This document shows positions 3,346 through 17,859 of a stretch of DNA of 64,000 nt, piece by piece. Position 1 is the stretch's first letter. Each line of letters opens with the position of its first letter. Origin of the DNA: a virus (Duplodnaviria > Caudoviricetes); IMG/VR virus record IMGVR_UViG_3300022591_000002, one strand, 5' to 3'. The translations under genes and the position numbers were made by a program. The notes beneath the pieces are model-generated. The model was given only the letters and a program-made list of their open reading frames with translations, did no database searches and was not told where the DNA came from.

Positions 3346-3648
3346 ATGAGCAAAGTATTTGGCGCACCAGAACAGGCTAAGATTAAACAATTGATTTCTG
3401 AGGGTGTAACAGTCCTACAAGAAATTGAAGATTTGAACGAAGGCCTCAACGACACTATCAAAGCTGTCGCAGAAGAACTAGAAGTTAAACCTAGTATTAT
3501 TAAAAAAGCAATCAAGATCGCACAAAAAGGCGACTGGGATCGTGTATTCACAGAATTTGATGATTTGGAAACTATCGTTGAAGTTAGTGGTCACGCTATT
3601 CGTCAAAGTGATTACGATGCAGAAAATCCAAACCGTACTGAAAATTAA
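3346..3648 (+). CDS. Small dsDNA-binding protein (T4 DsbA / GapR-like)
   Basis: 100-aa helical protein. The pattern KQLISEG..VLQEIEDL.E.LNDTIKAVAEEL.VKP..IKKAIK resembles the DsbA/DUF2312 fold; located upstream of the polymerase. Confidence 0.5.
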   Translation: MSKVFGAPEQAKIKQLISEGVTVLQEIEDLNEGLNDTIKAVAEELEVKPSIIKKAIKIAQKGDWDRVFTEFDDLETIVEVSGHAIRQSDYDAENPNRTEN

Positions 3649-3938
3649 TGATTGATACGTTGTTTGAACCAACATTAAGGTGGATTAAAGATGACTGGAG
3701 TTCTAATAAGTTTAGGTTCCTTATTGAGCTCCTTGCTTGGGCTATATCTATTGGCTGTTCTATTACGATGGCAGTCACAGTCCCTAATCCTCCTCTTCTC
3801 ATACTATATCCTATCTGGATTAGTGGCTGTGCTATGTATGCATGGGCTAGCTGGACTCGTAAGAGCTTTGGCATGTTGGCTAATTACATCCTGCTAGTCA
3901 GTATCGATACAGTCGGTTTGATTAGAATGATTGCTTAA
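3648..3938 (+). CDS. Small membrane protein
   Basis: 96 aa with about three hydrophobic segments. Confidence 0.65.
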   Translation: MIDTLFEPTLRWIKDDWSSNKFRFLIELLAWAISIGCSITMAVTVPNPPLLILYPIWISGCAMYAWASWTRKSFGMLANYILLVSIDTVGLIRMIA

Positions 3939-3957
3939 ATAATATTGAGAAAGGTTC

Positions 3958-4009
3958 AGCGAGCCATAAATCGCTATTTAGAAGGTTAACCGGCCATAAG
4001 CGGTAGGAG
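3958..4009 (+). promoter_or_regulatory. Tandem hairpins with matching 8-nt loops abutting the DNA polymerase RBS (putative translational operator)
   Basis: AGCGA-GCCATAAA-TCGCT (3958-3975) and ACCG-GCCATAAG-CGGT (3989-4004), immediately followed by AGGAG (4005-4009) and ATG 4015. Confidence 0.7.
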
Positions 4010-4014
4010 AAAAT

Positions 4015-6687
4015 ATGAGTTACGTAGATGCCATCTGGGATCGCGACAAAGACGTTGTACGTGTCGTTGAGCGAGATCCAAAAAAGGGCCGAATCTTTAT
4101 TGATTACCCAGCCCGATATCAATTTTACTATCCCGATCAAAAGGGCAAGTACACATCAATACATGGTGAGTCATTAAGCAAAGTCACAGCTAAGACTTTC
4201 AAAGACTTTATCAAAGAACAAAAAATTCACAGTACCCACAAGTTATACGAATCAGATATTAATGCTGTATTCCGTGTGCTTGAAGAAAAGTATCTAGGTA
4301 CTGAACCTCCCAAATTACACACAGCCTTTTGGGATATTGAGGTGGACTTTGATCCAGAACGCGGCTATGCATCTCCAGAAGATGCGTTCATGCCAATTAC
4401 TGCGATTGCTGTTCACCTACAATGGTTAGATACACTAATCTGTCTTGCAGTTCCTCCTAAGACACTTACAATGGAGCAGGCAAGAGAACAAGTTAAGGAA
4501 TTTCCTAATACACACTTGTTCGAAACAGAAGCAGAAATGCTTGACACTTTCTTACAGCTAATCGAAGATGCAGATATCTTAAGTGGTTGGAACAGTGAAG
4601 GCTTCGATATGCCGTATACTGTTAATCGTATTATTAAAGTTCTAAGCAAAGAAGATACACGCAGGCTGTGTTTATGGGATCATTTCCCAAAGAAGAGAGA
4701 ATATGAAAAATACGGAAAAACTGCGATCACTTATGATCTCGTGGGCCGAGTACACCTTGACTCATTGGAACTTTATAGAAAGTATACATATGAAGAACGC
4801 CACACCTACAGACTTGATGCTATTGGAGAAATGGAAGTCGGAGAGAGCAAAACAGTTTACGAAGGAACTCTCGATCAGTTATACAACAACGACTTCAGAA
4901 AGTTTATCGAATACAACAGACAAGACTGTGCGCTACTAGACAAATTAGATAAAAAACTAAAATTCTTAGATCTAGCCAACACACTGGCGCATGAAAATAC
5001 TGTATTGCTACAGACTACAATGGGTGCCGTTGCTGTTACAGAACAGGCTATTATTAATGAAGCACACCATAGAGGTATGATTGTTCCAAGTCGTCCTAAA
5101 CGTGATGACACAGAAAATAACCAAGCCGCAGGTGCTTATGTTGCTTATCCAAAGAAAGGTCTTCATGACTGGATTGGATCAATGGACATTAACTCACTGT
5201 ATCCATCTGTGATTCGTGCATTAAACATGGGCCCAGAAACTATTGTAGGACAACTGCGCCCTACAAAGACTGATGAATTCATTGAAGAACAAATGACCTT
5301 ACAGAAAAAGTCCTTTGCCGCGGCATGGGAAGATAAGTTTGGCACATTTGAATACGAAGCTGTTATGGATAAGGATCGAGCATTTGAAATTACTGTTGAC
5401 TGGGAAAACGGTGGCAGTGATGTAATGAGTGCCGCAGAAGTCTACAGATTGATCTTTGAAAGCAATCAACCGTGGATGCTAAGTGCTAACGGCACAATCT
5501 TTACACATGAGCAGGACGGTGTTATTCCAGGTTTGTTAAAACGCTGGTATGCTGAACGTAAAGATATGCAGAAAAAATTAAAGGAGGCAATCGATGCTGG
5601 TAACAAAATTGAGGAAGAGTATTGGGATAAGCGACAGCTTGTTAAGAAAATTAACCTTAACAGTCTATACGGTGCTATTCTTAATGCTGGTTGCAGGTTC
5701 TTTGATAAGCGTATTGGCCAATCCACAACTCTTACAGGAAGACAAATTGCTCGCCATATGGCCGCAAAAGTAAATGAAGTGATTACTGGAGAGTATGACT
5801 ATAAAGGCAAGAGCGTAATCTACGGTGACACAGACTCTGTGTACTTTAGTGCGTACTCTAGTCTTAAAAACGAAATTGCCAAAGGACAGATTCCTTGGGA
5901 TAGAGATACTGTTGTTCAACTGTATGATACTATTGCTACTAACGTGAATAGTACATTCCCAGAATTTATGCTGGAAGGGTTCCATTGTCCAAAGAGCCGC
6001 GGTGAGGTTATCAAGGCAGGACGTGAAATTGTTGCCGTCAAAGGCTTGTTCATTACTAAGAAACGTTATGCTGTACTGTATTACGATAAAGACGGCAAGA
6101 GACAAGACGTTGATGGTAAGCCAGGTAAGATCAAAGCTATGGGCTTGGACTTGAAGCGTTCAGATACTCCAGAATTTATGCAGAAGTTCCTAGAAGAAAT
6201 TTTAACTAACGTGCTTAATGGTGCTCAGGAAAAAGAAACTCTAGAACGCATTAGTGAATTCCGAACTGAGTTTAAGGCAAGACCTGGTTGGGAGAAAGGC
6301 AGTCCAAAACGTGCTAACAACATCACAGACTATCAAGAACGTGAAAAGAAAACTGGAAAGATTACTATTCCAGGCCATGTACGTGCTAGTATGAATTGGA
6401 ATACTCTAAAGACCATGCACGGTGACAAATACAGTCAACAGATTGTCGACGGCATGAAAGTAATTGTTTGTAAAATTAAAGACAATCCATTAGGATATAC
6501 TAGCGTTGCATATCCGGTTGATGAATTGCGTTTGCCAAAATGGTTCCAAGATTTACCATTTGACCACTCTGAGATGGAAACAACAATTATTAACAACAAG
6601 TTGGACAATCTTATTGGTGTTTTGGAATGGGATTTAGAATCAACAGTACAAAATAATACATTTGGCAAATTGTTCTCATTTGATTGA
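4015..6687 (+). CDS. Family B DNA polymerase (T4 gp43-like) with 3'-5' exonuclease
   Basis: ExoI FWDIEV, ExoII GWNSEGFDMPY, ExoIII YNRQD, motif A SMDINSLYPS, motif B KINLNSLYG, motif C YGDTDS, KKRY. Confidence 0.97.
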   Translation: MSYVDAIWDRDKDVVRVVERDPKKGRIFIDYPARYQFYYPDQKGKYTSIHGESLSKVTAKTFKDFIKEQKIHSTHKLYESDINAVFRVLEEKYLGTEPPKLHTAFWDIEVDFDPERGYASPEDAFMPITAIAVHLQWLDTLICLAVPPKTLTMEQAREQVKEFPNTHLFETEAEMLDTFLQLIEDADILSGWNSEGFDMPYTVNRIIKVLSKEDTRRLCLWDHFPKKREYEKYGKTAITYDLVGRVHLDSLELYRKYTYEERHTYRLDAIGEMEVGESKTVYEGTLDQLYNNDFRKFIEYNRQDCALLDKLDKKLKFLDLANTLAHENTVLLQTTMGAVAVTEQAIINEAHHRGMIVPSRPKRDDTENNQAAGAYVAYPKKGLHDWIGSMDINSLYPSVIRALNMGPETIVGQLRPTKTDEFIEEQMTLQKKSFAAAWEDKFGTFEYEAVMDKDRAFEITVDWENGGSDVMSAAEVYRLIFESNQPWMLSANGTIFTHEQDGVIPGLLKRWYAERKDMQKKLKEAIDAGNKIEEEYWDKRQLVKKINLNSLYGAILNAGCRFFDKRIGQSTTLTGRQIARHMAAKVNEVITGEYDYKGKSVIYGDTDSVYFSAYSSLKNEIAKGQIPWDRDTVVQLYDTIATNVNSTFPEFMLEGFHCPKSRGEVIKAGREIVAVKGLFITKKRYAVLYYDKDGKRQDVDGKPGKIKAMGLDLKRSDTPEFMQKFLEEILTNVLNGAQEKETLERISEFRTEFKARPGWEKGSPKRANNITDYQEREKKTGKITIPGHVRASMNWNTLKTMHGDKYSQQIVDGMKVIVCKIKDNPLGYTSVAYPVDELRLPKWFQDLPFDHSEMETTIINNKLDNLIGVLEWDLESTVQNNTFGKLFSFD

Positions 6688-7470: not shown

Positions 7471-7877
7471 TAAAAGGTTTAATGGGCTCAACAGGAGTTA
7501 TAGTCGACGGCGGTAATACATCATTGCCGTGGACTAACTCAAATGACAGTGACAGCTATCAAGGCATGTTGCGCCTTAGAGGTAGTGACATACAGTACTA
7601 TAACGCAGGAGTTTGGCAGACATTGCCTACTAGTTATGCTACTGTAAGACTTGACGGATCGGTAGAAACTCTGTTACAATGGGTAAGACAGAAGCAACAA
7701 GAAGAAACTGAATTTAAAACAATTCTTGGAAATCACGAACACCCTGCTGTACAGATTGCACAAGAAAACCTAAATAAAGCTATTGCCGCAGTAAAACAAG
7801 CAGAATTACAATTAAAAATAACCAGCAAACTTGCCGAAGATACTTATGTAGGCACAGAGGAAATGCAAGCACCATGA
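7467..7877 (+). CDS. Hypothetical protein
   Basis: 136-aa ORF coupled by ATGA overlaps; C-terminal coiled-coil-like segment. Confidence 0.7.
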   Translation: MIKGLMGSTGVIVDGGNTSLPWTNSNDSDSYQGMLRLRGSDIQYYNAGVWQTLPTSYATVRLDGSVETLLQWVRQKQQEETEFKTILGNHEHPAVQIAQENLNKAIAAVKQAELQLKITSKLAEDTYVGTEEMQAP

Positions 7878-9394
7878 GCAAACAACCAGTTAATTTAACA
7901 CCATTACAGAAGGACTATGCTGTCTATTTGCCAGCTATTAGTACTTTCTTTTCAACTTACATAAGCAAACAACGTTTTGACAAGTTTGTTCCTGATGATC
8001 GTATTCCTGCGGGATTTGATCGTGGGATTGAAGGTATGAACTTTCTTAATCCGGAAGAAGGGTACTTTACTTACAAGTATGGTTTGTATTCAGCAGGTCA
8101 CGCACAGTTGGATTTGCAAAAGACCATGATTCAAGATGCTATGTTGCAAGATCGTGATCGTGCAAACACAATGATCCTAGGAGACTCCGGTGGTTACCAG
8201 ATTGGTAAGGGTGTTCTTAAATTTGACTGGGCAGACTTTGAAGGCGCAAAAGCCAACAAGACTCGTGATGACATTCTCAATTGGTTAGAACTAACTGCCG
8301 ATTGGTCAATGTTACTAGACGTTCCTACTTGGGCATGTGACCATATTCATAGTCCAAAGACAGGTCTTAAATCATTCCAAGACTGTTTAGATAAAACACT
8401 ACACAACAATGATTACTTTTTGCGTAATCGCTTAGGTCAAACTAAGTTCTTGAACGTGTTACAAGGCAGTGACTGGGAAACCGCAGAAGCTTGGTATAAC
8501 GCAGTAAAGCATTTGCCTACAGAAGGTTGGGCAATGGGTGGTAAGAACATGTGCGATATGGAAGTTGCACTCAAACGTCTTATCATCTTACGTGATGAGA
8601 AATTGTTAGATGATCGTAACTGGATGCACTTCTTGGGTACTGCCCAATTAGACTGGTCATGCTACTTAACTAGTATTCAACGTGAAATCCGTTCAACTGT
8701 AAATGAGAACTTTACAATTAGCTTTGACTGTGCAAGTCCTTTTATTGCAACAGCACACGGTCTAGTTTACACAAACGCACAACACACTAACAAGCGTTGG
8801 TCAGTTATTATGGACAAGGCGCCAGATAACAAGGCACTTGCATCTACAGATATTCCTTTCCCATTCGAAAGCGAAATTGGTAACCGTTTGACAATGAAAG
8901 ATATTTGTCATTACAAGCCAGGTATGTTAAACAAGATCGGTAAGGAAGGCAAAACAAGTTGGGATAGCTTTGGTTATGCTCTAATGATGGCACATAATAC
9001 ATATTGTCATATTCGTGCTGTACAACGTGCTAACGTTCTTGCTGATATTGAAAGCCATAAGATACAGCCAGACTATCGTTACTGGAAACGTGTTAAAGAA
9101 CGTGATATGAGTGATGAATACTCAGATTGGGTTCCACGCAACATTCTGTATTTCAATGCGTTTGTTAAGGATTTGTTTAAATCTCAAAACCCAATGCAGA
9201 TGATTGAAGATGCAAAACCAATGCTTAACAGCATGATGGGTATGCGACTACGTGGTGGTACTGCTTCTAATACATTTAAGAATTTGTTTGAAGAAGAAAC
9301 TGCTACTAACATATTGGGCGTCGAAGATCTTAATGATCCAGATGATGAAAAATTGTTAGAACTCGAACATGAGTTCAACGAACAGAAAGGTTAA
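7874..9394 (+). CDS. dpdA: TGT-fold guanine transglycosylase (DpdA-like)
   Basis: TGT motifs ILGDSGGYQ, MLLDVP, NVLQG, GWAMGG, MHFLG, FDCASP and C-terminal MAHN; clustered with folE and queE. Confidence 0.8.
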   Translation: MSKQPVNLTPLQKDYAVYLPAISTFFSTYISKQRFDKFVPDDRIPAGFDRGIEGMNFLNPEEGYFTYKYGLYSAGHAQLDLQKTMIQDAMLQDRDRANTMILGDSGGYQIGKGVLKFDWADFEGAKANKTRDDILNWLELTADWSMLLDVPTWACDHIHSPKTGLKSFQDCLDKTLHNNDYFLRNRLGQTKFLNVLQGSDWETAEAWYNAVKHLPTEGWAMGGKNMCDMEVALKRLIILRDEKLLDDRNWMHFLGTAQLDWSCYLTSIQREIRSTVNENFTISFDCASPFIATAHGLVYTNAQHTNKRWSVIMDKAPDNKALASTDIPFPFESEIGNRLTMKDICHYKPGMLNKIGKEGKTSWDSFGYALMMAHNTYCHIRAVQRANVLADIESHKIQPDYRYWKRVKERDMSDEYSDWVPRNILYFNAFVKDLFKSQNPMQMIEDAKPMLNSMMGMRLRGGTASNTFKNLFEEETATNILGVEDLNDPDDEKLLELEHEFNEQKG

Positions 9395-9396
9395 GA

Positions 9397-9924
9397 ATGA
9401 AACGTGAATATACTGACGGTATTTCAGAAGACGTCTTGTTCTTTATTGGAACAGAAATTGAACGCACACCTGCATTTAATATGAAAACATTATTTGTAGT
9501 TGGCGTCCAAAATGAGCAGACTATTGTTAACCTAGCCGCAGATAACGGATGCACACATATCTATTTTGGTGCCAATCAAAGTTTTCCAAAACTAGAAACT
9601 AATGATGCAAGCAACTGGCGTCTATGGGAAGATATGATTCAGTATTGCCTAGATGCAGGTTTTTGGTGTACACTAGACTTTGATGTTGCGCAAACTGAAG
9701 GTTTATTAGAAAGCGGTCTGGTTGAGTATAGAAAATTTATTCCGCAGATTTCGGTGAAATTGCCCTATTTACAACAGCTAGGATATAATGCTACAATTAA
9801 GATAGACGATATCGGCTTTGAAGCAACAAATCCAGGTGTCTGGTGTGTACCAATTGGCGCTGTTACACAACGTAAGTATTTTACCAATTGGGATGAATAC
9901 AGTAACGATGAGATTATTAAATGA
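9397..9924 (+). CDS. Hypothetical protein inside the deazaguanine operon
   Basis: 175-aa ORF between the TGT-like and T-fold genes, coupled to the latter by an ATGA overlap. Confidence 0.75.
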   Translation: MKREYTDGISEDVLFFIGTEIERTPAFNMKTLFVVGVQNEQTIVNLAADNGCTHIYFGANQSFPKLETNDASNWRLWEDMIQYCLDAGFWCTLDFDVAQTEGLLESGLVEYRKFIPQISVKLPYLQQLGYNATIKIDDIGFEATNPGVWCVPIGAVTQRKYFTNWDEYSNDEIIK

Positions 9925-10364
9925 GTATTGAAACTATTAAAGAAGCCGCACAACGGCAAATTTGGGTTACCTTTCAAAAGGAAGGCATTCACTGCTATCC
10001 TGCCGCGGCAACAGACCCAGCACTTGCTACAGGAGATGAATATGATGTATCGTTTTTGGGCACTCCTCATCGTCATATCTTTCACTTCCGGGTGTCAATC
10101 GATGTATTCCACAATGACAGGGACATCGAATTCATCCAATTCAAACGGTGGCTCGAGAGTCTCTATACCGGTAACAACACTAATAACGGTTCCGTTTTAG
10201 CACTTAACTACAAGTCTTGCGAAATGATTGCAGATGATTTGTACGACCAGATTGCGTCACGATACCCAAATCGTAACGTAGTAATTGATGTATCCGAGGA
10301 CGGCGAGAACGGATGCATCATTCATTATAACCTTACTCGCCCGTCACAATCCATTGTAATTTAA
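9921..10364 (+). CDS. dpdL: T-fold QueD-like protein with LxxxHRHxF motif (DpdL-like CDG decarboxylase candidate)
   Basis: EGIH, LGTPHRHIF, DIEF, SCEMIA and VSED align with QueD T-fold motifs, but HRH replaces HGH and there is no CxxxHGH. Confidence 0.6.
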   Translation: MSIETIKEAAQRQIWVTFQKEGIHCYPAAATDPALATGDEYDVSFLGTPHRHIFHFRVSIDVFHNDRDIEFIQFKRWLESLYTGNNTNNGSVLALNYKSCEMIADDLYDQIASRYPNRNVVIDVSEDGENGCIIHYNLTRPSQSIVI

Positions 10365-10376
10365 GGAACTTAAAAA

Positions 10377-10622
10377 ATGGCACAGCCAAAGTGGCTCGAC
10401 AAATATCTGACTATGAAGCCTGAAGTCAGCAAGATCTTTGATGATCTTGAGGCATGGCACGATCATTGCCGTTTTGAAATGATCAACTTCAACCCTGCAG
10501 ACTTATACAAGTCTAAGGCGTACCGCGACTGGCAGTACTACAAGTCGAAGGGCAAGCGTCCGTTTGTGCATCGCGATGACCGTGAGCGCAAGCCATATCA
10601 GGGTAAGAACCCTAGATACTAA
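10377..10622 (+). CDS. Hypothetical protein
   Basis: 81-aa ORF with an AAGGA RBS upstream. Confidence 0.7.
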   Translation: MAQPKWLDKYLTMKPEVSKIFDDLEAWHDHCRFEMINFNPADLYKSKAYRDWQYYKSKGKRPFVHRDDRERKPYQGKNPRY

Positions 10623-10623
10623 T

Positions 10624-11730
10624 ATGACAGTATTCCTAGTTGATCTAGAAGCTGTTGAGACAAGGTACACGGGTCAGTGGAAGACTCATGTACCTGCTCT
10701 CTTACGTAAAGAAGGACACAATGTTCAAGTTATATCCGGACCTACTGATATACCTAGTGCTACTACTCCTGGCGCTTTTCTTAACTTTGGCGGGACTAAC
10801 ATCTACAAAGCTAGTCAAGTGGAGCAGATGGGTCGCCTATTTTGCTCCGGAGCAGTACATCCTGGGGATCATTTTTTGTTTACTGATGCTTGGCATCCTG
10901 GTATCATAAACTTAAAGTACATGAGTGAGTTGTTAGATATTCCTGTAACAACACACGGCTTATGGCACGCTGGTAGTTATGATCCTCAAGATTTCCTAGG
11001 TCGACTAGTTGGCAATAAACCTTGGGTTCGTAGAGCAGAAGCAAGTTTTTATCACGCATTTGATCACAACTACTTTGCTACAGACTTTCATATTAAACTA
11101 TTCTTTGATGAATTGTTAATGGGTGGTTTGAAATCTGAGAATCCTTGGTATGATGACGATATTGCAGAAGTGCTAGGTGGATTAAATCCTAAGATTGTAC
11201 GCACTGGTTGGCCAATGGAGTATATGGATAATACTTTAACTACGTATAAGAACATGGACAAGCGTGATCTTATCTTGTTCCCACATCGTATTGCTCCAGA
11301 AAAACAAGTTGAAATTTTTCGCGATTTAAAAGAACACTTGCCACAATATGAATTTATTGTGTGTCAAGATCAACAGTTAACAAAGAATGAATATCATAAT
11401 TTGTTAGGCGAAGCAAAGTTAGTATTCAGTGCTAACTTACAAGAAACATTAGGCATTAGTTGTTACGAAGGTGCAGTAGTAGATGCAATACCTATGGTGC
11501 CAGATCGTTTAAGTTATACAGAAATGTATTTTGATACATTTAAGTATCCTAGTGAATGGACTGAAAGTTTTGCTTCTTATGAAGCTCATCGTCCAGAACT
11601 GTGTGGTAAGATTATTCAGTATATGAACAACTATACACATATGGTTCCGCAGATTCGTAAGCAAGCAGAATCATTGACAGAGAATTTTTTTAGTGCAACA
11701 GAGTTGTTAAAGAGGTTTAAAAATGAGTAA
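10624..11730 (+). CDS. GT-B fold glycosyltransferase (GT4-like; resembles GTDC1/QTMAN)
   Basis: ILFPHRIAPEK and QETLGISCYEG..DAIPMVPDRLSYTEM match the GT-B donor-binding region. Start moved to ATG 10624 to avoid overlapping the upstream gene. Confidence 0.8.
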   Translation: MTVFLVDLEAVETRYTGQWKTHVPALLRKEGHNVQVISGPTDIPSATTPGAFLNFGGTNIYKASQVEQMGRLFCSGAVHPGDHFLFTDAWHPGIINLKYMSELLDIPVTTHGLWHAGSYDPQDFLGRLVGNKPWVRRAEASFYHAFDHNYFATDFHIKLFFDELLMGGLKSENPWYDDDIAEVLGGLNPKIVRTGWPMEYMDNTLTTYKNMDKRDLILFPHRIAPEKQVEIFRDLKEHLPQYEFIVCQDQQLTKNEYHNLLGEAKLVFSANLQETLGISCYEGAVVDAIPMVPDRLSYTEMYFDTFKYPSEWTESFASYEAHRPELCGKIIQYMNNYTHMVPQIRKQAESLTENFFSATELLKRFKNE

Positions 11731-12520
11731 AGTAGGTATTATAGGTTTAGGATTTGTAGGTAACGCAATTAAGCAATCATTTTATGACGATACTAATCTA
11801 GTGCTAGTAGATAAAAATCCCGCACTCGGTCGCGATCCGTTTCAAGATTTAACAACCACTGATGGTGTGTTTATTTGTGTTCCAACTCCACAAGATGACG
11901 ATGGAACATGCCATACTGATATTTTAGAAGATATTCTTGCCAAGTTGAAATTAATCAACTACGAAGGAGTTATTATCAGTAAGTGTACTGCACCTCCCGA
12001 TACCTATACACGGCTTAATGAACAATTTCCAAACCTTGTACATGCTCCAGAATTTTTAACTGCGGCTAATGCTGTACGTGATTACACTAGTGGTAAGTTT
12101 GCTATTATCGGTGGTCGTGTTAAAGCCTATCGCGACTTAGCTGAAACAATTATTCGCAGATCACAATTAGATTTACAAGCAGTACACCATTGCACTATTG
12201 CAGAAGCAAGTTTAGCAAAATACGCTATCAATACCTTTATGGCAACCAAGGTTACATTTATGAATGAAATGTATGCTCTTGCCAAAGCTAGCAACTGTGA
12301 TTATAATAAGATTGCACATATGATTAAAAGTGATGTACGTATTGGAAATAGTCATTTACAAGTTCCTGGGCCAGATGGTGCATTTGGGTTCGGTGGAGCG
12401 TGTTTTCCAAAAGATACAAGCGCATTACTCAAATATGCAGAAAGCGTTGACGTACAAATGAATGTATTGGACGCCGCAGTTAAAAAGAATTTAGTACTAA
12501 GATTGACAGAACCTAAATAA
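11723..12520 (+). CDS. ugd: UDP-glucose/GDP-mannose dehydrogenase family protein (short form)
   Basis: Rossmann GIIGLGFVG, FICVPTP, APEFL, AKYAINTFMATKVTFMNE, catalytic GFGGACFPKD; 265 aa. Confidence 0.9.
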   Translation: MSKVGIIGLGFVGNAIKQSFYDDTNLVLVDKNPALGRDPFQDLTTTDGVFICVPTPQDDDGTCHTDILEDILAKLKLINYEGVIISKCTAPPDTYTRLNEQFPNLVHAPEFLTAANAVRDYTSGKFAIIGGRVKAYRDLAETIIRRSQLDLQAVHHCTIAEASLAKYAINTFMATKVTFMNEMYALAKASNCDYNKIAHMIKSDVRIGNSHLQVPGPDGAFGFGGACFPKDTSALLKYAESVDVQMNVLDAAVKKNLVLRLTEPK

Positions 12521-12531
12521 TATTGTAAAAT
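12503..12531 (+). promoter_or_regulatory. Sigma70-type promoter upstream of folE
   Basis: TTGACA (12503-12508), 17 nt, TAAAAT (12526-12531). Confidence 0.65.
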
Positions 12532-12571
12532 AACATATAAGTCATCCACGACTTAAACTCGGAGAAATTAA

Positions 12572-13342
12572 TTGACAACATTTACATCAGAAGATTTACG
12601 AAACGTACTAGCTGGCGCAGAACAGCAAGGCGATGACGATAAGAATTATAAAGAAGCATACTTAGGCGATCACCTTCGTTTTAAAATGAAACGTGAAGGC
12701 AAACGTTTTTGGGCAGGTGACAATATCAGCGAATATGTTACTGAAGAGTTTAAAGAAAAACTAATCGACGAAGCAACAGAAGCATTTGAAACAGTACTAG
12801 ATCGATTGCTTATTGATCGTGAAAACGATCCTAACAGCAAAGGCACAGCACGTCGGCTTGCCAAAATGTACTTTAACGAGATAATGGCAGGAAGATATGA
12901 ACCAGGACCAGATGCAACAGCATTTCCAAATGACTCGCAGGATCGTTACGAAGGTATGCTCGTTGTTCGTAGTGAGCTTCGCAGTATGTGTAGTCATCAT
13001 CACCAACCCGTATCTGGTGTTGCTTATATTGGCATTATTGCCGCTCAGAAACTTATCGGCTTATCAAAGTACACACGTATCGCACAATGGTGCGCCAGAC
13101 GTGGAACTCTCCAGGAGGAACTTTGTAATGACATTGCTAGGGAGATCTCAAAAGCAACTGACTCAGAAAACGTAGCAGTCTACGTTCAAGCAGTTCATGG
13201 ATGTTGCGAGAACCGCGGCATTATGGCACACTCTAGTCTAACTCAAACTACTGTATTAAAAGGTACATTTAAAGATGATCCTCATACAAAGAAAGAGTTC
13301 TTTGACAACATCAAACTACAACAAGAGTTTGCTCCAAGATGA
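12572..13342 (+). CDS. folE: GTP cyclohydrolase I
   Basis: TARRLAKMY, SMCSHHHQP, LIGLSK..RI, LQEE, HGCCENRG; TTG start after a GGAG RBS. Confidence 0.95.
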   Translation: MTTFTSEDLRNVLAGAEQQGDDDKNYKEAYLGDHLRFKMKREGKRFWAGDNISEYVTEEFKEKLIDEATEAFETVLDRLLIDRENDPNSKGTARRLAKMYFNEIMAGRYEPGPDATAFPNDSQDRYEGMLVVRSELRSMCSHHHQPVSGVAYIGIIAAQKLIGLSKYTRIAQWCARRGTLQEELCNDIAREISKATDSENVAVYVQAVHGCCENRGIMAHSSLTQTTVLKGTFKDDPHTKKEFFDNIKLQQEFAPR

Positions 13343-13566
13343 CCAGCGACTTAATTCTACTTTCGATTGTATTGGGCTTAGGTATTCTTATCGGTCGTAA
13401 TTGGCACGGCGATAAAGAACACGAGTATAAGAAACGGTTGCTAAAAGAAATCAATAATGACATCAAGAACGAATTAGAAGTAGCAACTAATCTAAACGAA
13501 AGTCTCAAAGAAGACATTGTAGAATTAAAACGTAAATTACGCAAGTTTGAACTGGAAAGGAAATAA
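13339..13566 (+). CDS. Small protein with N-terminal TM helix and coiled coil
   Basis: Hydrophobic LILLSIVLGLGILIG followed by a heptad-rich charged segment. Confidence 0.65.
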   Translation: MTSDLILLSIVLGLGILIGRNWHGDKEHEYKKRLLKEINNDIKNELEVATNLNESLKEDIVELKRKLRKFELERK

Positions 13567-13567
13567 C

Positions 13568-14473
13568 ATGGCAACGCTTGAAGAAAAAGAAAAGTTAATG
13601 GAAGTACTTAAATTTACTCCACGTACCTACAAAATTTCAATGTGGGGATATGGTGGTGAAAAAGTTATGGGTACTGTAGATCGTAAGATTTACGATTACT
13701 TTAAATATCGCAGACTTGATCTTAGCGACTACGCATGGGACAGCGACTATGCCGACGAGCATAACATTCCCGAAGATATGCAACCGTTCCCATCGGGTAG
13801 TTGGTACGAGTGCGATGGTATGGGACATGCAGGCGGTGTTAGCCGTAACGCAGGCACACTTCAAATTGAAGATGAAAATGGCGAAGTTATATACGAACGT
13901 AGTCTAGAAGATTTAGACGGCGGTGATGATAGTCCAGAGTTGACATGCTATGACGAAGTTTGGATTGATTCACAACCTGCAGGTACTGTAGTCTTTATTG
14001 GTAACAGTAACGAAAAAGGTACATTCTTTGAATCAGAATTAGAGCTTACTGCTCCGTTTGATATTACTAAACTAACTCTACAATACGATGAAATCGACGG
14101 TGAAGAGATTGTTAATACTGTAATGTACAACAGTGAAGACATTGATAACTGGGGTGGTAGCACAGATGGCAAGAGTTCAGACTTTGGCTTTTACATCGCT
14201 CACTCACAAAGCCAAACAGGCAAGTGGGAAAAGTATACCAATATGGATGACATTGAGTATGCTATGACTGACTGGTTTCCTAAAAAGATTAAACCTGTAC
14301 GCAACGGCATCTACATGGTTAAGACTGCTGGCAAGAACAGTTACACGTATCAGTGCAAGTGGACTGGAGAACGTTGGATCAGTGCGTGGCAAGAAGATAC
14401 TCCAGAAACTGACGAAGTTAAAATTAAAGAATGGCAGGGTCTTGCCAATAACCCAGATGAGGTAACACAATGA
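13568..14473 (+). CDS. Acidic hypothetical protein
   Basis: Long open frame; start set at ATG 13568 after GGAAAGGA. Confidence 0.7.
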   Translation: MATLEEKEKLMEVLKFTPRTYKISMWGYGGEKVMGTVDRKIYDYFKYRRLDLSDYAWDSDYADEHNIPEDMQPFPSGSWYECDGMGHAGGVSRNAGTLQIEDENGEVIYERSLEDLDGGDDSPELTCYDEVWIDSQPAGTVVFIGNSNEKGTFFESELELTAPFDITKLTLQYDEIDGEEIVNTVMYNSEDIDNWGGSTDGKSSDFGFYIAHSQSQTGKWEKYTNMDDIEYAMTDWFPKKIKPVRNGIYMVKTAGKNSYTYQCKWTGERWISAWQEDTPETDEVKIKEWQGLANNPDEVTQ

Positions 14474-14781
14474 ATTTCCTAAGCAAGTGGCTTTTTAAAA
14501 AGCTCAAAGAAGGTGCGGAGCAAGAACGCGAAGAAAATATGTATAGTAACTCTATCCCTAAAACAATGGCCATTAGCGGCCGCGATATTGAGAATAGACT
14601 CGATAGCGATCGCGGTATTCGTTTTAATGTATATAAAGCCACAGGCGGTACAATCATCGAAACTCAGTTTTACGATCGTCAAAGAGATCGCCATCATAAT
14701 GCGCTACATGTTATTACCGAAGATAAAGATATTGGTAAAGAACTTGGCAAGATCATTACAATGGAGTCATTAAAGACGTGA
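14470..14781 (+). CDS. Hypothetical protein
   Basis: 103-aa ORF, coupled overlaps at both ends. Confidence 0.65.
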   Translation: MNFLSKWLFKKLKEGAEQEREENMYSNSIPKTMAISGRDIENRLDSDRGIRFNVYKATGGTIIETQFYDRQRDRHHNALHVITEDKDIGKELGKIITMESLKT

Positions 14782-14975
14782 GTTATACCGGACCCGTATT
14801 TGATGGCCCTAGTTTAGACAAACAGACAAAATGGATTAAGAAGTATCAAGTTGATCCGTTAAAATTAGGACGTATGTGTGAACAGTTTCCGGGGTTGCAA
14901 AAATCCTGGAATGAGTTTAAACTAGTGTATGAACTTTGTAGGAGTGCAGATGAAACTAACCGAACGATTCCTTAA
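14778..14975 (+). CDS. Hypothetical protein
   Basis: 65-aa ORF with a GTG start overlapping the upstream stop (GTGA). Confidence 0.55.
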   Translation: MSYTGPVFDGPSLDKQTKWIKKYQVDPLKLGRMCEQFPGLQKSWNEFKLVYELCRSADETNRTIP

Positions 14976-15438
14976 CTGGTTAGATCGACACGGCCGTAAA
15001 CGTGTCATTATGGATCGCGAATGTAACGAACCTTATTTGGAACGTTACTATGTCTTTTTGAAAGATCGTAAATGGTTTCCATTTAACGTATTCATTCATA
15101 AATTTTTAAAATCAGACCCAGATGAGGTACATGATCATCCATGGCCTTACGCTACCTTAATTCTTAAAGGTGGTTACTACGAATGGATTCCAATGTTTGC
15201 ACCAGATGGAATTAAAGTTGGCGAAACACGCTACTGGCGTGGTCCCGGACATTTCCGTATTTGTAGTCCTAAGAGTTTTCACCGTATTGAATTGCACCCA
15301 GAGGTAACTGCTTGGACTATGTTCATGCCAGGCCCACAAGTGCGTGAATGGGGATTCTTAGTAGGCAAATTTGAGAATCAAAAGTGGGTACACAACGAAC
15401 AATATTTGGAGGCAAGACGTGAACAAGCTGGTAATTGA
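14950..15438 (+). CDS. Cupin-fold protein
   Basis: VHDHPW...LILKGGYYE and FHRIEL give a His-rich cupin metal site; GGAG RBS before ATG 14950. Confidence 0.7.
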   Translation: MKLTERFLNWLDRHGRKRVIMDRECNEPYLERYYVFLKDRKWFPFNVFIHKFLKSDPDEVHDHPWPYATLILKGGYYEWIPMFAPDGIKVGETRYWRGPGHFRICSPKSFHRIELHPEVTAWTMFMPGPQVREWGFLVGKFENQKWVHNEQYLEARREQAGN

Positions 15439-15955
15439 TGATGCAAAATTTAAAGGCCTAGTTGCCAAAATCTGTAGAGATATTTTACTCAGCGATTGGC
15501 GTCCTGATTATATTGTAGGTATTACTAGAGGCGGACTATTGCCAGCTGTAATGATTAGCCAATACTTAGATATACCTATGCATACACTCAACGTAAGCCT
15601 GCGTGATAATCAAACAGATTTAGGTCCGGAGAGTAATTTATGGATGGCTGAAGATGCCTACGGATATAATGCAGAAAACGTAGGCGAGGCGTTGTGCAAA
15701 AACATTTTAGTAGTTGATGACATCAACGATCAAGGCTCAACTATAAACTGGATCATGGAAGATTGGCGTAGTGGTTGCTTACCTAATGATGCACGTTGGG
15801 AACAAGTATGGAATTACAATGTTCGATTTGCAGTAATTATAGATAATTTATCTAGCAAGTGCAATGTAAAAATGGACTACGTTGGTATGGAAGTTAACAA
15901 AGCTGAAAAAGACGTATGGATCGAATTTCCTTATGAGGAATGGTGGGCTAAATGA
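15419..15955 (+). CDS. Type I phosphoribosyltransferase (xanthine/guanine PRT-like)
   Basis: IVGITRGGLLPA and PRPP loop ILVVDDINDQGST; GTG start 15419 after GGAGG. Confidence 0.85.
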   Translation: MNKLVIDDAKFKGLVAKICRDILLSDWRPDYIVGITRGGLLPAVMISQYLDIPMHTLNVSLRDNQTDLGPESNLWMAEDAYGYNAENVGEALCKNILVVDDINDQGSTINWIMEDWRSGCLPNDARWEQVWNYNVRFAVIIDNLSSKCNVKMDYVGMEVNKAEKDVWIEFPYEEWWAK

Positions 15956-16236
15956 ATTCGCAAGAAAAAGAAGTAATGGATATTCTGCAAGAAGAATGTG
16001 CAGAAGTTATTCAAGCAGTTAGTAAAATTAGTCGCTTTGGTTTAGACAATTACAAACCAGGCAAACCTAAAACTAACCGCGAACATCTAGAAGAAGAACT
16101 AGGTGATATGTTGGCTATGATTGATATTTTGCAAAGTATGGATATTGTTAGCTATGCTAATATCGAACGTGCCCAAGAAGCAAAAATTGAAAAACTTAAG
16201 AAATGGTCTAACATTTATGAAAACAATATTACCTAA
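15952..16236 (+). CDS. MazG-like NTP pyrophosphohydrolase
   Basis: EECAEVIQAVSK and EEELGDMLAMI all-alpha NTP-PPase motifs. Confidence 0.85.
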   Translation: MNSQEKEVMDILQEECAEVIQAVSKISRFGLDNYKPGKPKTNREHLEEELGDMLAMIDILQSMDIVSYANIERAQEAKIEKLKKWSNIYENNIT

Positions 16237-16402
16237 AGAAGGCAGTAGATGGTCCGGCACTGAGAGGGAAGTTTTTATTGTCCTGCATACCGTTGAAGTA
16301 GACGGTCACACTTGGGTCCATTACAGAAAAAATTCTACTGATACAGAATATAGCTGTTACGTGGAAAGTTTTTTACAAAGATTTAATCCTATATTAGAAT
16401 GA
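16217..16402 (+). CDS. Small hypothetical protein
   Basis: 61-aa frame (MKTILPKEGSRW..) filling the gap between the MazG-like and cupin genes. Confidence 0.55.
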   Translation: MKTILPKEGSRWSGTEREVFIVLHTVEVDGHTWVHYRKNSTDTEYSCYVESFLQRFNPILE

Positions 16403-16758
16403 CACAATTAAAAGGCTTAGTTCCAAAAGGCTGGGGTTCAGAATTTATCTGGGCCACTAATGACAAGTACTGCGGCAAGTTTATGAACTTCAACGCAGGT
16501 GCAAAATTTAGTATGCACTTCCATAAAGATAAAGAAGAAACTTGGTATATACAATCAGGTAAATTTATTATCCGCTGGATTGATACTAACAACGCAGAGG
16601 TTTACGAGAAAGAAGTTAGTGATGGTACCGTATGGCATAACCCCCCGTGCATGCCACATCAAATCGAATGTATCGAAGCAGGTACTGTTATTGAAGTTTC
16701 TACTCCAGATTCAGTAGAAGACAATTATCGTGTAGGCAAGGGCGATAGTCAAAAATGA
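16399..16758 (+). CDS. Cupin, sugar isomerase/epimerase-like
   Basis: KGWGSEFIW, SMHFHKDKEETWY, PHQI, IEVST; adjacent to the RfaE-like genes. Confidence 0.75.
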   Translation: MTQLKGLVPKGWGSEFIWATNDKYCGKFMNFNAGAKFSMHFHKDKEETWYIQSGKFIIRWIDTNNAEVYEKEVSDGTVWHNPPCMPHQIECIEAGTVIEVSTPDSVEDNYRVGKGDSQK

Positions 16759-17156
16759 CAAAGGTAATTGTTAATGGAACTTTTGATATACTACATCGCG
16801 GCCATTTGGAACTACTTGACTACGCTAAAAGTTGTGGCGGGTATTTGCTTGTGGCTATTGACACAGATCGCCGTGTAAAAGAATTAAAAGGCGACAGTCG
16901 TCCTATTATTAGTCAGTATGATCGTAAGTATCATTTAGAAATGCTTAAACCAGTCGATGAAGTTAGACTGTTTGATAGCAAAGAAGAACTTGTAGAAATT
17001 ATTAAGAATTATAATCCAGACATTATGGTCAAGGGCAGTGATTACAAAGGCCGTAGTGTAGTTGGAGCAACATACGTACCAGAGGTAATTTATTTTGAAC
17101 GACTCGGCGAATACTCAACAACCAAAACAATTGAACATATTACTGCTAGGGGATGA
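16755..17156 (+). CDS. Cytidylyltransferase-family nucleotidyltransferase (RfaE/HldE domain II-like)
   Basis: NGTFDILHRGH (HxGH), DRRVKELKGDSRP, KGSDY, YSTT. Confidence 0.9.
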   Translation: MTKVIVNGTFDILHRGHLELLDYAKSCGGYLLVAIDTDRRVKELKGDSRPIISQYDRKYHLEMLKPVDEVRLFDSKEELVEIIKNYNPDIMVKGSDYKGRSVVGATYVPEVIYFERLGEYSTTKTIEHITARG

Positions 17157-17859
17157 CGGTTTAGACGTCTATCAGTTTGGTAGCGTAGATCGTATTAGCC
17201 CAGAAGCACCTGTTCCCGTCTTTAAACATTCTTATGATATTCATCGGGCTGGCATGGCTCGTAACGTTTGCGAAAACTTAGAAGCATTGGGTTGTAAAGT
17301 AAGTTTCCTACGAGGCCAAACTAGCATCAAGACTAGACTAATTGATATTCGCAGTAAGCAACAAATTGTTAGGATTGACAACGATGTTGAATCAGATCCT
17401 ATTGTGTTTGAAACTAATATTCCCCCAGTGTATGATGCCATTGTTATTAGCGATTATAACAAAGGCACAATTACTTACGAACTAATTGAAGATCTAGTAA
17501 AAACTGTTAAATGCCCTATCTTTGTTGATACAAAGAAAACTGACCTAGCACGATTGGAAGGCTGTATTATTAAAATTAATAAACACGAATACAGTTTGTT
17601 AACTAGCAAGCCAAAAACAGGATTAGTTATTACACAGGGAGAAAATGGTGTTGTATGGGACGGTTGGGCATTTGGCGCAAAGACTGTAGAAGTAGCCGAT
17701 GTGTGTGGAGCAGGGGATACGTTTCTATCTGCACTTACATACCAATACCTAAATACAAACGACATGCACATGGCAATTAACTTTGCAATAGATGCAAGTG
17801 CAGTTACAGTACAACATTTAGGTTGTTACGCACCCAAACTGGAAGAGATAAATGGATAA
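17131..17859 (+). CDS. PfkB-family sugar kinase (RfaE/HldE domain I-like)
   Basis: RISPEAPVPV, GMARNV..NL.ALG, ISDYNKG, DVCGAGDTF; probable TTG start at 17131. Confidence 0.9.
   Translation: MNILLLGDDGLDVYQFGSVDRISPEAPVPVFKHSYDIHRAGMARNVCENLEALGCKVSFLRGQTSIKTRLIDIRSKQQIVRIDNDVESDPIVFETNIPPVYDAIVISDYNKGTITYELIEDLVKTVKCPIFVDTKKTDLARLEGCIIKINKHEYSLLTSKPKTGLVITQGENGVVWDGWAFGAKTVEVADVCGAGDTFLSALTYQYLNTNDMHMAINFAIDASAVTVQHLGCYAPKLEEING

What the first reader, a model, noticed from the sequence alone, without database searches (positions are those of the whole stretch)
3948..4017. Twin hairpins with near-identical 8-nt loops in the DNA polymerase leader: putative autogenous translational operator
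Seen: two units, each GA(A)AGGTT, then a stem, loop GCCATAA(A/G) and stem. The stems differ (AGCGA/TCGCT versus ACCG/CGGT) while the loops are conserved, which is internal covariation. The second hairpin directly abuts the AGGAG RBS. Known: T4 gp43 represses its own translation through a hairpin with an 8-nt loop just upstream of its SD. Inference: a duplicated operator with a different loop sequence, bound by the polymerase or another RNA-binding protein.
Basis: partly seen in the sequence, partly recalled or inferred. Interest (0 to 1): 0.7.

Follow-up and report, generated by a model that had tools for sequence, protein, structure and literature searches.

The report
Twin pseudoknot leader of phage polymerase
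The messenger RNA leader of this uncultured giant phage's DNA polymerase gene holds two small, strongly conserved RNA pseudoknots pressed against the ribosome-binding site; they are in no RNA catalogue and most likely limit how much polymerase is made, as phage T4 does with a simpler hairpin.

Summary
Window 3953-4004 holds two units directly before AGGAG-N5-ATG of an 890-aa family B DNA polymerase (T4 gp43 homologue).

- **Conservation:** both units are kept in every one of 128 distinct leaders of a large uncultured jumbo-phage clade. The stems covary heavily and the loops stay GCCNNAAN.
- **Each unit is an H-type pseudoknot, not a plain hairpin:** the upstream GGY pairs with loop GCC. Wherever the loop is GCU the upstream triplet is AGU, and I found no incompatible combination in 234 units next to the ribosome site.
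- **Gene-specific:** the element occurs once per genome and only at this gene. It is absent from 185,579 prokaryote genomes, from Rfam 15 and from the papers I could search.
- **New here:** sister lineages (polymerase 60-65% identical) carry one such pseudoknot. In many of them the GG of the Shine-Dalgarno lies inside the stem. Other relatives have none. The unit next to the ribosome site is therefore the core, and the twin looks like a clade-specific duplication.

This points to control of translation initiation. Binding by the polymerase itself, as in T4, is the best guess but is untested. RegA is absent, and I found no link to the phage's deazaguanine genes. This scan had already reported the same motif on other genomes.

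The parts
3648..3938 (+). Upstream ORF (96 aa, weak YwiC-like membrane-protein match). Its TAA stop lies 14 nt before the first GGU.
   Evidence: The same gene (C-terminus ...IDxVGLIRM...) precedes the leader in most relatives. In relatives without a leader its stop abuts or overlaps the polymerase start.
3953..3975 (+). Pseudoknot unit 1: S1 5' strand GGU 3953-3955; L1 UC; S2 AGCGA 3958-3962 with UCGCU 3971-3975; S1 3' strand GCC 3963-3965; L3 AUAAA 3966-3970.
   Evidence: Stem pairs carry 43-45 double changes per 100 sequences with 0-1 unpaired. S1 first pair: G-C 91, A-U 8. S1 third pair: U-G 86, C-G 9, U-A 4.
3976..3983 (+). Linker AUUUAGAA between the units; variable in sequence.
3984..4004 (+). 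Pseudoknot unit 2 (next to the SD): GGU 3984-3986; L1 UA; S2 ACCG 3989-3992 with CGGU 4001-4004; GCC 3993-3995; L3 AUAAG 3996-4000.
   Evidence: At least 16 different inner stems occur within the clade. Across clades the S1 combinations are GGU/GCC 133, GGC/GCC 51, AGU/GCU 42, AGC/GCU 4, with no mismatch.
4005..4009 (+). Shine-Dalgarno AGGAG, starting at the first base after the 3' strand of unit 2.
   Evidence: In relatives an SD-like word begins 4-7 nt after the loop, that is at or inside the end of the stem. In sister clade X its GG is inside the stem.
4015..6687 (+). Family B DNA polymerase, 890 aa, homologue of T4 gp43.
   Evidence: 25% identity to T4 gp43 over 693 residues, E 1e-53. Pfam PF00136 and PF03104 on relatives.

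Best explanation
The 76-nt stretch between the upstream gene and the polymerase start is a cis-acting RNA operator made of two tandem mini H-type pseudoknots.

Each unit reads GGY, a 0-3 nt loop, a 4-7 bp stem, GCC (which pairs back to GGY), an A-rich loop NNAAN, and the 3' strand of the stem. The second pseudoknot ends where the Shine-Dalgarno begins.

When the folded state is held in place by a trans-acting factor, it keeps the 30S subunit off the SD and lowers polymerase synthesis. When the weak 3-bp helix opens, translation proceeds. The factor is most likely the polymerase itself when it is not engaged on DNA, as with T4/RB69 gp43.

- **Shown:** the two stems, the pseudoknot pairing, the position against the SD, and the restriction to this one gene.
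- **Inferred:** the effect on translation, its direction (repression), and the identity of the binder.
For: **Structure**
- Covariation in both stems.
- The pseudoknot pair G-C changes to A-U with no mismatch. Unit 1: 95 GGU/GCC, 17 GGC/GCC, 9 AGU/GCU, 4 GGU/ACC.
- These changes sit at 3 or more separate places on the polymerase tree.
- In the SD-proximal unit across clades there are 186 G-C, 47 A-U, 1 G-U and 0 mismatches, with at least 4 switches on a 305-sequence tree.
- G-U pairs are frequent: 38 of 100 at one stem pair, and 86 U-G in S1. They would be A-C mismatches on the other strand, so the sense-strand RNA is what folds.

**Link to translation**
- The SD starts at the end of the stem in the twin clade.
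- In 44-48 of 109 distinct sister-clade leaders the GG of GGAG is part of the 3-bp stem CCG/CGG.
- In L291 the element sits before the SD of an 11-codon uORF whose stop overlaps the polymerase ATG.
- Relatives without the element have the polymerase start fused to the upstream gene's stop.

**Gene specificity**
- Covariance models R1 and R2 hit only the polymerase leader in the window and in five large relatives, one of them 331 kb and 93% complete.
- 69 of 69 pattern hits in IMG/VR precede the polymerase.
- Hits in prokaryote genomes are chance only.

**Analogy**
- T4 gp43 represses its own translation through a hairpin with an 8-nt loop plus sequence overlapping the RBS. RB49 has UAAA in that loop, and the 3' AA/AC loop bases matter (PMC3014915).
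- The protein here is a gp43 homologue.
- The general T4 repressor RegA is absent from relatives, and the T4 positive control rings.
Against: - There are no binding or expression data of any kind.
- The polymerase is only 25% identical to T4 gp43, the operators share no alignable sequence, and some T4-related polymerases do not autoregulate (PMC3014915).
- 70 of 305 related polymerases, including near-complete genomes G009 and G010, have no such element. The control is therefore dispensable.
- In this window the SD itself is not paired, only abutted.
- S1 has only 3 bp, and the whole leader is no more stable than shuffles.
- Nearly all invariant letters are explained by the fold, so they do not point to any particular binder.
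Confidence: 0.5

Rival explanations
1. A structural element that needs no factor. The pseudoknots set a fixed, low rate of initiation, uncouple polymerase translation from the upstream membrane-protein gene, or protect the processed mRNA 5' end from RNase E or exonucleases.
For: - Almost every invariant base is accounted for by the fold alone.
- Relatives without the element couple the polymerase start directly to the upstream stop.
- The element is gained or lost about 21 times on the polymerase tree, as expected of a tuning device.
- Weak UUG starts are common in sister clade X.
Against: - A passive barrier would not need an invariant GCC/AA core kept across polymerases only 60% identical while the stems change freely.
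- It also would not need duplication of the same unit.
Confidence: 0.2
2. An operator for another RNA-binding protein, phage-encoded or host (for example a dimer that reads the two like units), rather than for the polymerase.
For: - Two near-identical units about 31 nt apart suit a dimeric or bivalent binder.
- Precedents from my own knowledge: ThrRS and CsrA operators use two sites.
Against: - One site per genome, always at the polymerase gene, argues against a regulon-type repressor.
- RegA is absent.
- Sister clades manage with one unit.
- The neighbouring genes gave no RNA-binding family.
Confidence: 0.15
3. A tandem small-molecule riboswitch. Each roughly 22-nt pseudoknot would be a minimal aptamer (same topology as preQ1-I) sensing a nucleotide-pool metabolite such as a dNTP or a 7-deazaguanine precursor.
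For: - H-type pseudoknot with an A-rich third loop, and SD bases in the 3'-most strand in clade X, which is the layout of preQ1-I translational switches (my own knowledge).
- Tandem like units recall guanidine-II.
- The phage carries deazaguanine DNA-modification genes at 7874-19811 (earlier notes).
Against: - No Rfam riboswitch model matches at E up to 10 or up to 1 on 15 relatives.
- There is no loop between S2 and S1 to hold a ligand-pairing base.
- L1 and two of the five L3 positions vary freely, so there are too few conserved unpaired bases for a pocket.
- The DpdA-like gene is present in relatives with the element (G001, G006, G007) and without it (G009, G010) alike.
Confidence: 0.08
4. 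A DNA-level signal: a hairpin promoter, primase site or origin read on single-stranded or extruded DNA.
For: Conserved loops on variable stems also describe the N4 virion-RNAP hairpin promoters (my own knowledge).
Against: - Frequent G-U pairs (38% at one stem pair, 86% at one S1 pair) are strand-specific and poor in DNA.
- The position is fixed relative to the SD and start codon rather than to any replication feature.
- Pseudoknot covariation is not expected of such DNA signals.
Confidence: 0.03

Closest known systems
Translational operator of T4 / RB69 / RB49 gene 43 (autogenous repression by DNA polymerase gp43)
   Same: - Lies in the leader of the homologous gene.
- A stem of about 5 bp with an 8-nt loop lies 5' of the SD.
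- The loop is A-rich, with UAA(A) as in RB49.
- It is unique in the genome.
   Different: - No alignable sequence: T4 is AGCCU[AAUAACUC]GGGCU, ending 21 nt before the AUG.
- The T4 hairpin is single and, according to the review, not a pseudoknot.
- Here there are two units, each with a covarying loop-to-upstream helix, and the second touches the SD.
- Binding is untested.
T4 gene 32 leader pseudoknot (autogenous control by the single-strand binding protein)
   Same: A small H-type pseudoknot in the leader of a replication gene that serves translational autoregulation.
   Different: It belongs to a different gene. It lies far upstream of the RBS as a nucleation site for cooperative binding, is single, and has different stems and loops.
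preQ1-I riboswitch (RF00522)
   Same: A minimal H-type pseudoknot with an A-rich third loop. The 3'-most strand can include the first SD bases (clade X).
   Different: No match to the Rfam model. The first helix has 3 bp instead of 5. There is no L2 with the ligand-pairing C. The conserved unpaired positions are missing.
Guanidine-II riboswitch (mini-ykkC)
   Same: Two tandem small hairpins with near-identical conserved loops and free-varying stems, next to an RBS.
   Different: Its loops are ACGR tetraloops that kiss each other. Here the loops have 8 nt and pair with their own upstream GGY. No Rfam match.
E. coli rpsO (S15) and rplT (L20) pseudoknot operators
   Same: A pseudoknot at or near the RBS, stabilised by the gene's own product to block or trap the 30S subunit.
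   Different: They are ribosomal-protein genes, with larger pseudoknots that mimic rRNA sites.

Membership tests
T4-type gene 43 translational operator | Lies in the 5' leader of a gp43-homologue gene, just upstream of its SD | tested here: met
   position; gp43 homology, E 1e-53.
T4-type gene 43 translational operator | Hairpin with a short stem and an 8-nt loop, followed by a single strand that includes the SD | tested here: met
   compared with T4. Here, however, the loop is also engaged in a pseudoknot.
T4-type gene 43 translational operator | Loop sequence of the -UAAC-/-UAAA- type, with the 3' AC/AA bases important (PMC3014915) | tested here: inconclusive
   The loops read GCC-A-U/C-A-A-N in unit 1 and GCC-N-N-A-A-N in unit 2. 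The AA is invariant, but it sits at other loop positions than in T4's AAUAACUC.
T4-type gene 43 translational operator | Sequence or structure homology to the T4/RB69 operator | tested here: not met
   No alignable similarity. The named jumbo phages closest by polymerase lack the motif.
T4-type gene 43 translational operator | Specific binding by its own polymerase, and repression of translation | not testable with these tools
   Needs binding and reporter assays.
H-type RNA pseudoknot | Strand order S1a-S2a-S1b-S2b, with both helices supported by compensatory changes | tested here: met
   S2. S1: G-C to A-U with no mismatch in 125 distal and 234 SD-proximal units, and at least 3 and at least 4 switches on the trees.
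preQ1-I riboswitch | Match to RF00522, and an L2 loop with the ligand-pairing cytosine | tested here: not met
   No Rfam hit at E up to 10 or up to 1. S2a runs directly into GCC, so L2 = 0.
Guanidine-II (mini-ykkC) | Two hairpins with ACGR tetraloops | tested here: not met
   The loops are 8-nt GCCNNAAN. No Rfam hit.
RegA translational regulon | A regA gene is present and there are several target RBSs per genome | tested here: not met
   PF01818 is absent from G001-G005, and the T4 control is positive. There is one site per genome.

The most novel reading that the evidence does not exclude
Each roughly 22-nt unit is a self-contained ligand-binding aptamer, which would be the smallest natural one known. 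The tandem pair would then form a cooperative riboswitch that ties DNA polymerase synthesis to a nucleotide-pool metabolite during infection.
Probability: 0.08. Interest if true: 0.9.

Novelty: new variant of a known kind. Interest (0 to 1): 0.62.

Why it matters
**A new RNA family.** It would add an uncatalogued, very compact structured RNA to the short list of phage translational operators. It is present in at least hundreds of contigs of an abundant group of uncultured giant phages, and their polymerase has thousands of relatives in public metagenomes.

**A natural series to compare.** The family comes with no element, with one pseudoknot holding the SD in its stem, and with two pseudoknots abutting the SD. 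That series makes the evolution of such control directly testable.

**If the polymerase is the binder,** autogenous control of replicative polymerases would reach far beyond the T4 group, through an unrelated RNA. It would also give a 20-25 nt RNA ligand for a family B polymerase, suited to structural work that is still missing for gp43-RNA complexes.

Tried and rejected
- **Genome-wide promoter or regulon motif.** Rejected: pattern and covariance-model scans find it only at the polymerase leader. A look-alike hairpin at 14987-15006 lies inside a coding region, scores 10 bits and is at chance level.\n- **Known RNA family.** None in Rfam 15.\n- **Close phage in GenBank.** None by DNA. The best protein hits are about 50% identical (Phosso, Atu_ph07, Rak2-like), and their polymerase leaders lack the motif.\n- **Sigma-70 promoter just upstream.** None in this window.\n- **Loop pairing with the start of the coding region (CAUAA with UUAUG).** Not conserved: this window has UUACG, and many unit-2 loops differ.\n- **GGU boxes as decoy SDs.** Rejected: in sister clade Y the triplet context is GUAGAGU, which is not SD-like.\n- **CCA-end mimicry by 'GCCA'.** Rejected: unit-2 loops are often GCCG or GCCU, and GCU variants are compensated upstream.\n- **Link to deazaguanine genes.** No correlation. 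Pfam TGT does not detect this phage's DpdA-like protein, so the window's own protein had to be used as the query.\n- **Prokaryote genomes.** 5 pattern hits, none with stems.\n- **Literature.** Five searches found no description. PMC137073 (Petrov and Karam 2002) is not held.\n- **Reaching relatives at intermediate identity.** The protein search returned only relatives at 83% identity or more. The intermediates came from a search seeded with the Phosso polymerase.
Full report
**What is in the sequence**

Between the TAA of a 96-aa upstream ORF (3648-3938) and the ATG of an 890-aa ORF (4015-6687) lie 76 bases. They read:
- GGU-UC-AGCGA-[GCCAUAAA]-UCGCU (3953-3975)
- a linker, AUUUAGAA
- GGU-UA-ACCG-[GCCAUAAG]-CGGU (3984-4004)
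- AGGAG (4005-4009), AAAAU, then AUG

The ORF is a family B DNA polymerase. Its best named relatives are only 43-50% identical: Sinorhizobium phage Phosso, Agrobacterium phage Atu_ph07 and Rak2-like jumbo phages. It is 25% identical to T4 gp43 over 693 residues, E 1e-53.

The whole leader, however, is no more stable than shuffled sequence (z 0.44). Thermodynamics alone would not have made the case.

**Conservation and covariation**

A scan of IMG/VR with the polymerase gave 80 loci at 80-92% amino-acid identity, and two further scans gave about 150 more. Together they hold 128 distinct leaders, and both units are recognisable in all of them.

On 68 distinct leaders:
- The drawn pairs are standard pairs in 90.9% of cells, against 74% in column shuffles.
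- The covariation score is 0.567 against 0.258, reached by 0 of 500 shuffles.
- Versions with the 3' partner slid by 1-3 columns reach at most 0.17.

On 100 other leaders aligned by a covariance model the values are 91.6% and 0.593. Each of the four inner pairs of either stem has 41-48 sequences changed on both sides and 0-1 unpaired. RNAalifold predicts the same two hairpins without being told. There are at least 11 different inner stems in unit 1 and 16 in unit 2, while the loops stay GCC-A-Y-A-A-N and GCC-N-N-A-A-N.

**The units are pseudoknots**

The conserved GGY before each stem is complementary to the first three loop bases.
- In unit 1 the combinations are GGU/GCC 95, GGC/GCC 17, AGU/GCU 9 and GGU/ACC 4, with none incompatible. 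The spacing is fixed at 7 nt in 115 of 125 leaders.
- In the model-based alignment the first pair is G-C 91, A-U 8. The second is always G-C. The third is U-G 86, C-G 9, U-A 4.
- On a polymerase tree the AGU/GCU state sits in at least three separate places, for example L017 as sister of L013 and L044 as sister of L030.

One caveat applies. The two positions are 12 nt apart, so exchange of whole leaders by recombination could carry both changes together. The number of truly independent double mutations may therefore be lower than the number of places on the tree.

The geometry is a classical H-type pseudoknot:
- S1 has 3 bp.
- L1 has 1-3 nt and crosses a 4-7 bp S2. L1 shortens as S2 lengthens.
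- There is no L2.
- L3 has 5 A-rich nt, with two invariant adenines that could dock in the minor groove of S1. This last point is inference.

Frequent G-U pairs would be A-C on the other strand, so the sense-strand RNA is what folds.

**Where it occurs**

- A covariance model of the tandem element (R1) and one of a single unit (R2) hit only the polymerase leader in the 64-kb window. The same holds in five large relatives, one of them 331 kb and estimated 93% complete.
- A search by motif pattern, independent of homology, returned 69 stretches from 2.9 million viral contigs. All 69 stand before a polymerase beginning MSYVD or a close variant.
- The same pattern found 5 stretches in 185,579 prokaryote genomes. 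That is about the number expected by chance, and none has stems.
- Rfam 15 gives nothing, even at E up to 10.
- I found no paper describing it.
- The scan's own notes show that other readers and follow-up agents had already reported the same motif on other genomes of this clade, with the same reading. My analysis was done on the data before I read those notes, and it agrees.

**Sister lineages**

A search seeded with the Phosso polymerase fetched lineages whose polymerase is 60-65% identical to the window's. Two more searches enlarged them. Their leaders fall into three types.

- **Type X:** a different covarying hairpin (GAGUCG-stem-loop-stem-CAUGA), then one pseudoknot, typically GGC-UAA-CCG-[GCCAUAAA]-CGG-AG. 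Here the GG of the Shine-Dalgarno GGAG is the end of the 3-bp stem. This holds for 44-48 of 109 distinct leaders, and the start codon is often UUG.
- **Type Y:** the same first hairpin, then AGU-NN-stem-[GCUNNAAR]-stem. This is the A-U version of the pseudoknot pair, now in the unit next to the SD.
- **Type Z:** no leader at all. The polymerase start abuts or overlaps the stop of the upstream membrane-protein gene.

Over all clades, 234 of 305 distinct polymerases have the SD-proximal unit:

| Upstream triplet / loop start | Count |
|---|---|
| GGU/GCC | 133 |
| GGC/GCC | 51 |
| AGU/GCU | 42 |
| AGC/GCU | 4 |
| GGU/ACC | 2 |
| AGU/ACU | 1 |
| GGU/GCU (wobble, a plausible intermediate) | 1 |
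| Incompatible | 0 |

A 305-sequence tree needs at least 4 switches between G-C and A-U, and about 21 changes of presence or absence. Two near-complete relatives without the leader have no unit anywhere.

The SD-proximal pseudoknot therefore looks like the old core. The twin in this window looks like a clade-specific duplication that replaced another hairpin.

**How it probably works**

Every line of evidence ties the element to the ribosome-binding site of this one gene:
- It ends at the SD, or contains it.
- In one variant (L291) it sits before the SD of an 11-codon uORF whose stop overlaps the polymerase ATG.
- Where it is missing, the gene is instead coupled to the upstream ORF.

A 3+3 to 3+7 bp pseudoknot is weak enough to be opened by the ribosome. 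It would block the SD if something held it shut. I therefore read it as a translational operator.

One site per genome argues for a gene-specific regulator, and the simplest candidate is the gene's own product. T4, RB69 and RB49 gp43 repress their own mRNAs through a hairpin with an 8-nt loop next to the RBS, and the 3' AA/AC loop bases matter there (PMC3014915). RegA, the general T4 repressor encoded next to gene 43, is absent from relatives (with a positive control).

None of this shows binding. The T4 and present operators share no sequence, and the review notes that some T4-related polymerases do not autoregulate.

| Claim | My odds |
|---|---|
| The element controls translation initiation | about 0.8 |
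| The units are pseudoknots | about 0.8 |
| The polymerase is the binder | about 0.4 |

**Rivals**

- **Passive tuning or stabilising structure (0.2).** It fits the frequent gain and loss. It does not explain the invariant core or the duplication well.
- **Another protein (0.15).** It would suit the two like units, but it has no candidate.
- **Riboswitch (0.08).** The topology is that of preQ1-I, and the phage has deazaguanine DNA-modification genes downstream (earlier notes). Against it: no Rfam model matches, there is no loop to hold a ligand-pairing base, and few unpaired bases are conserved. The DpdA-like gene is also present in relatives with and without the element. Pfam's TGT model misses this protein, so the window's own sequence had to be used as the query.
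- **DNA-level signal (0.03).** It is contradicted by the strand-specific G-U pairs.

**Verdict**

The element is a new RNA family of a known functional kind. Its three natural forms (none, one unit holding the SD, two units) make it readily testable.

Noticed in passing
L402-L481 and L482-L561, about 40-70 nt before the polymerase start (e.g. L411:230-300): Sister clades have a different first hairpin with covarying stems and variable loops. It is flanked by conserved GAGUCG and CAUG(A/U)A. In clade Y the 3' flank reads AUGUAG, a start-stop pair; in clade X it reads AUGAAUCAUGG.
   Followed up: partly
L291 (reverse strand), about 2774-2880: In one relative an 11-codon uORF (MIDIKYRGKPE*) lies between the second pseudoknot and the polymerase. 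Its TGA overlaps the polymerase ATG (ATGA).
   Followed up: partly
window 14981-15007: A hairpin GACACG[GCCGTAAA]CGTGTC with GGT 6 nt upstream lies 36 nt inside an ORF that starts at 14951. It scores only 10 bits with the unit model, so it is probably chance.
   Followed up: partly
window 3930-3950 and the same place in relatives: A TAAATA(A/T)T word lies 6-10 nt before the first GGY in most leaders. It includes the upstream stop codon, but it also looks like a -10 box or a T4-type late-promoter box. L001 has TTGACA 17 nt upstream of AATAAT. The promoter scan found none in this window.
   Followed up: partly
window 7874-9391: The 506-aa DpdA-like protein noted by earlier readers is not detected by Pfam TGT (PF01702). 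It does have homologues at 50-76% identity in all five near-complete relatives tested.
   Followed up: partly
L256 (polymerase ORF 948 aa) and L289 (1049 aa): Two relatives have polymerase ORFs 60-160 residues longer than the usual 888-890. This may be an insertion or an intein.
   Followed up: no
L404-L449 and others of clade X: Many clade-X polymerase genes appear to start with TTG, 7-8 nt after a GGAG that is half buried in the pseudoknot stem.
   Followed up: no
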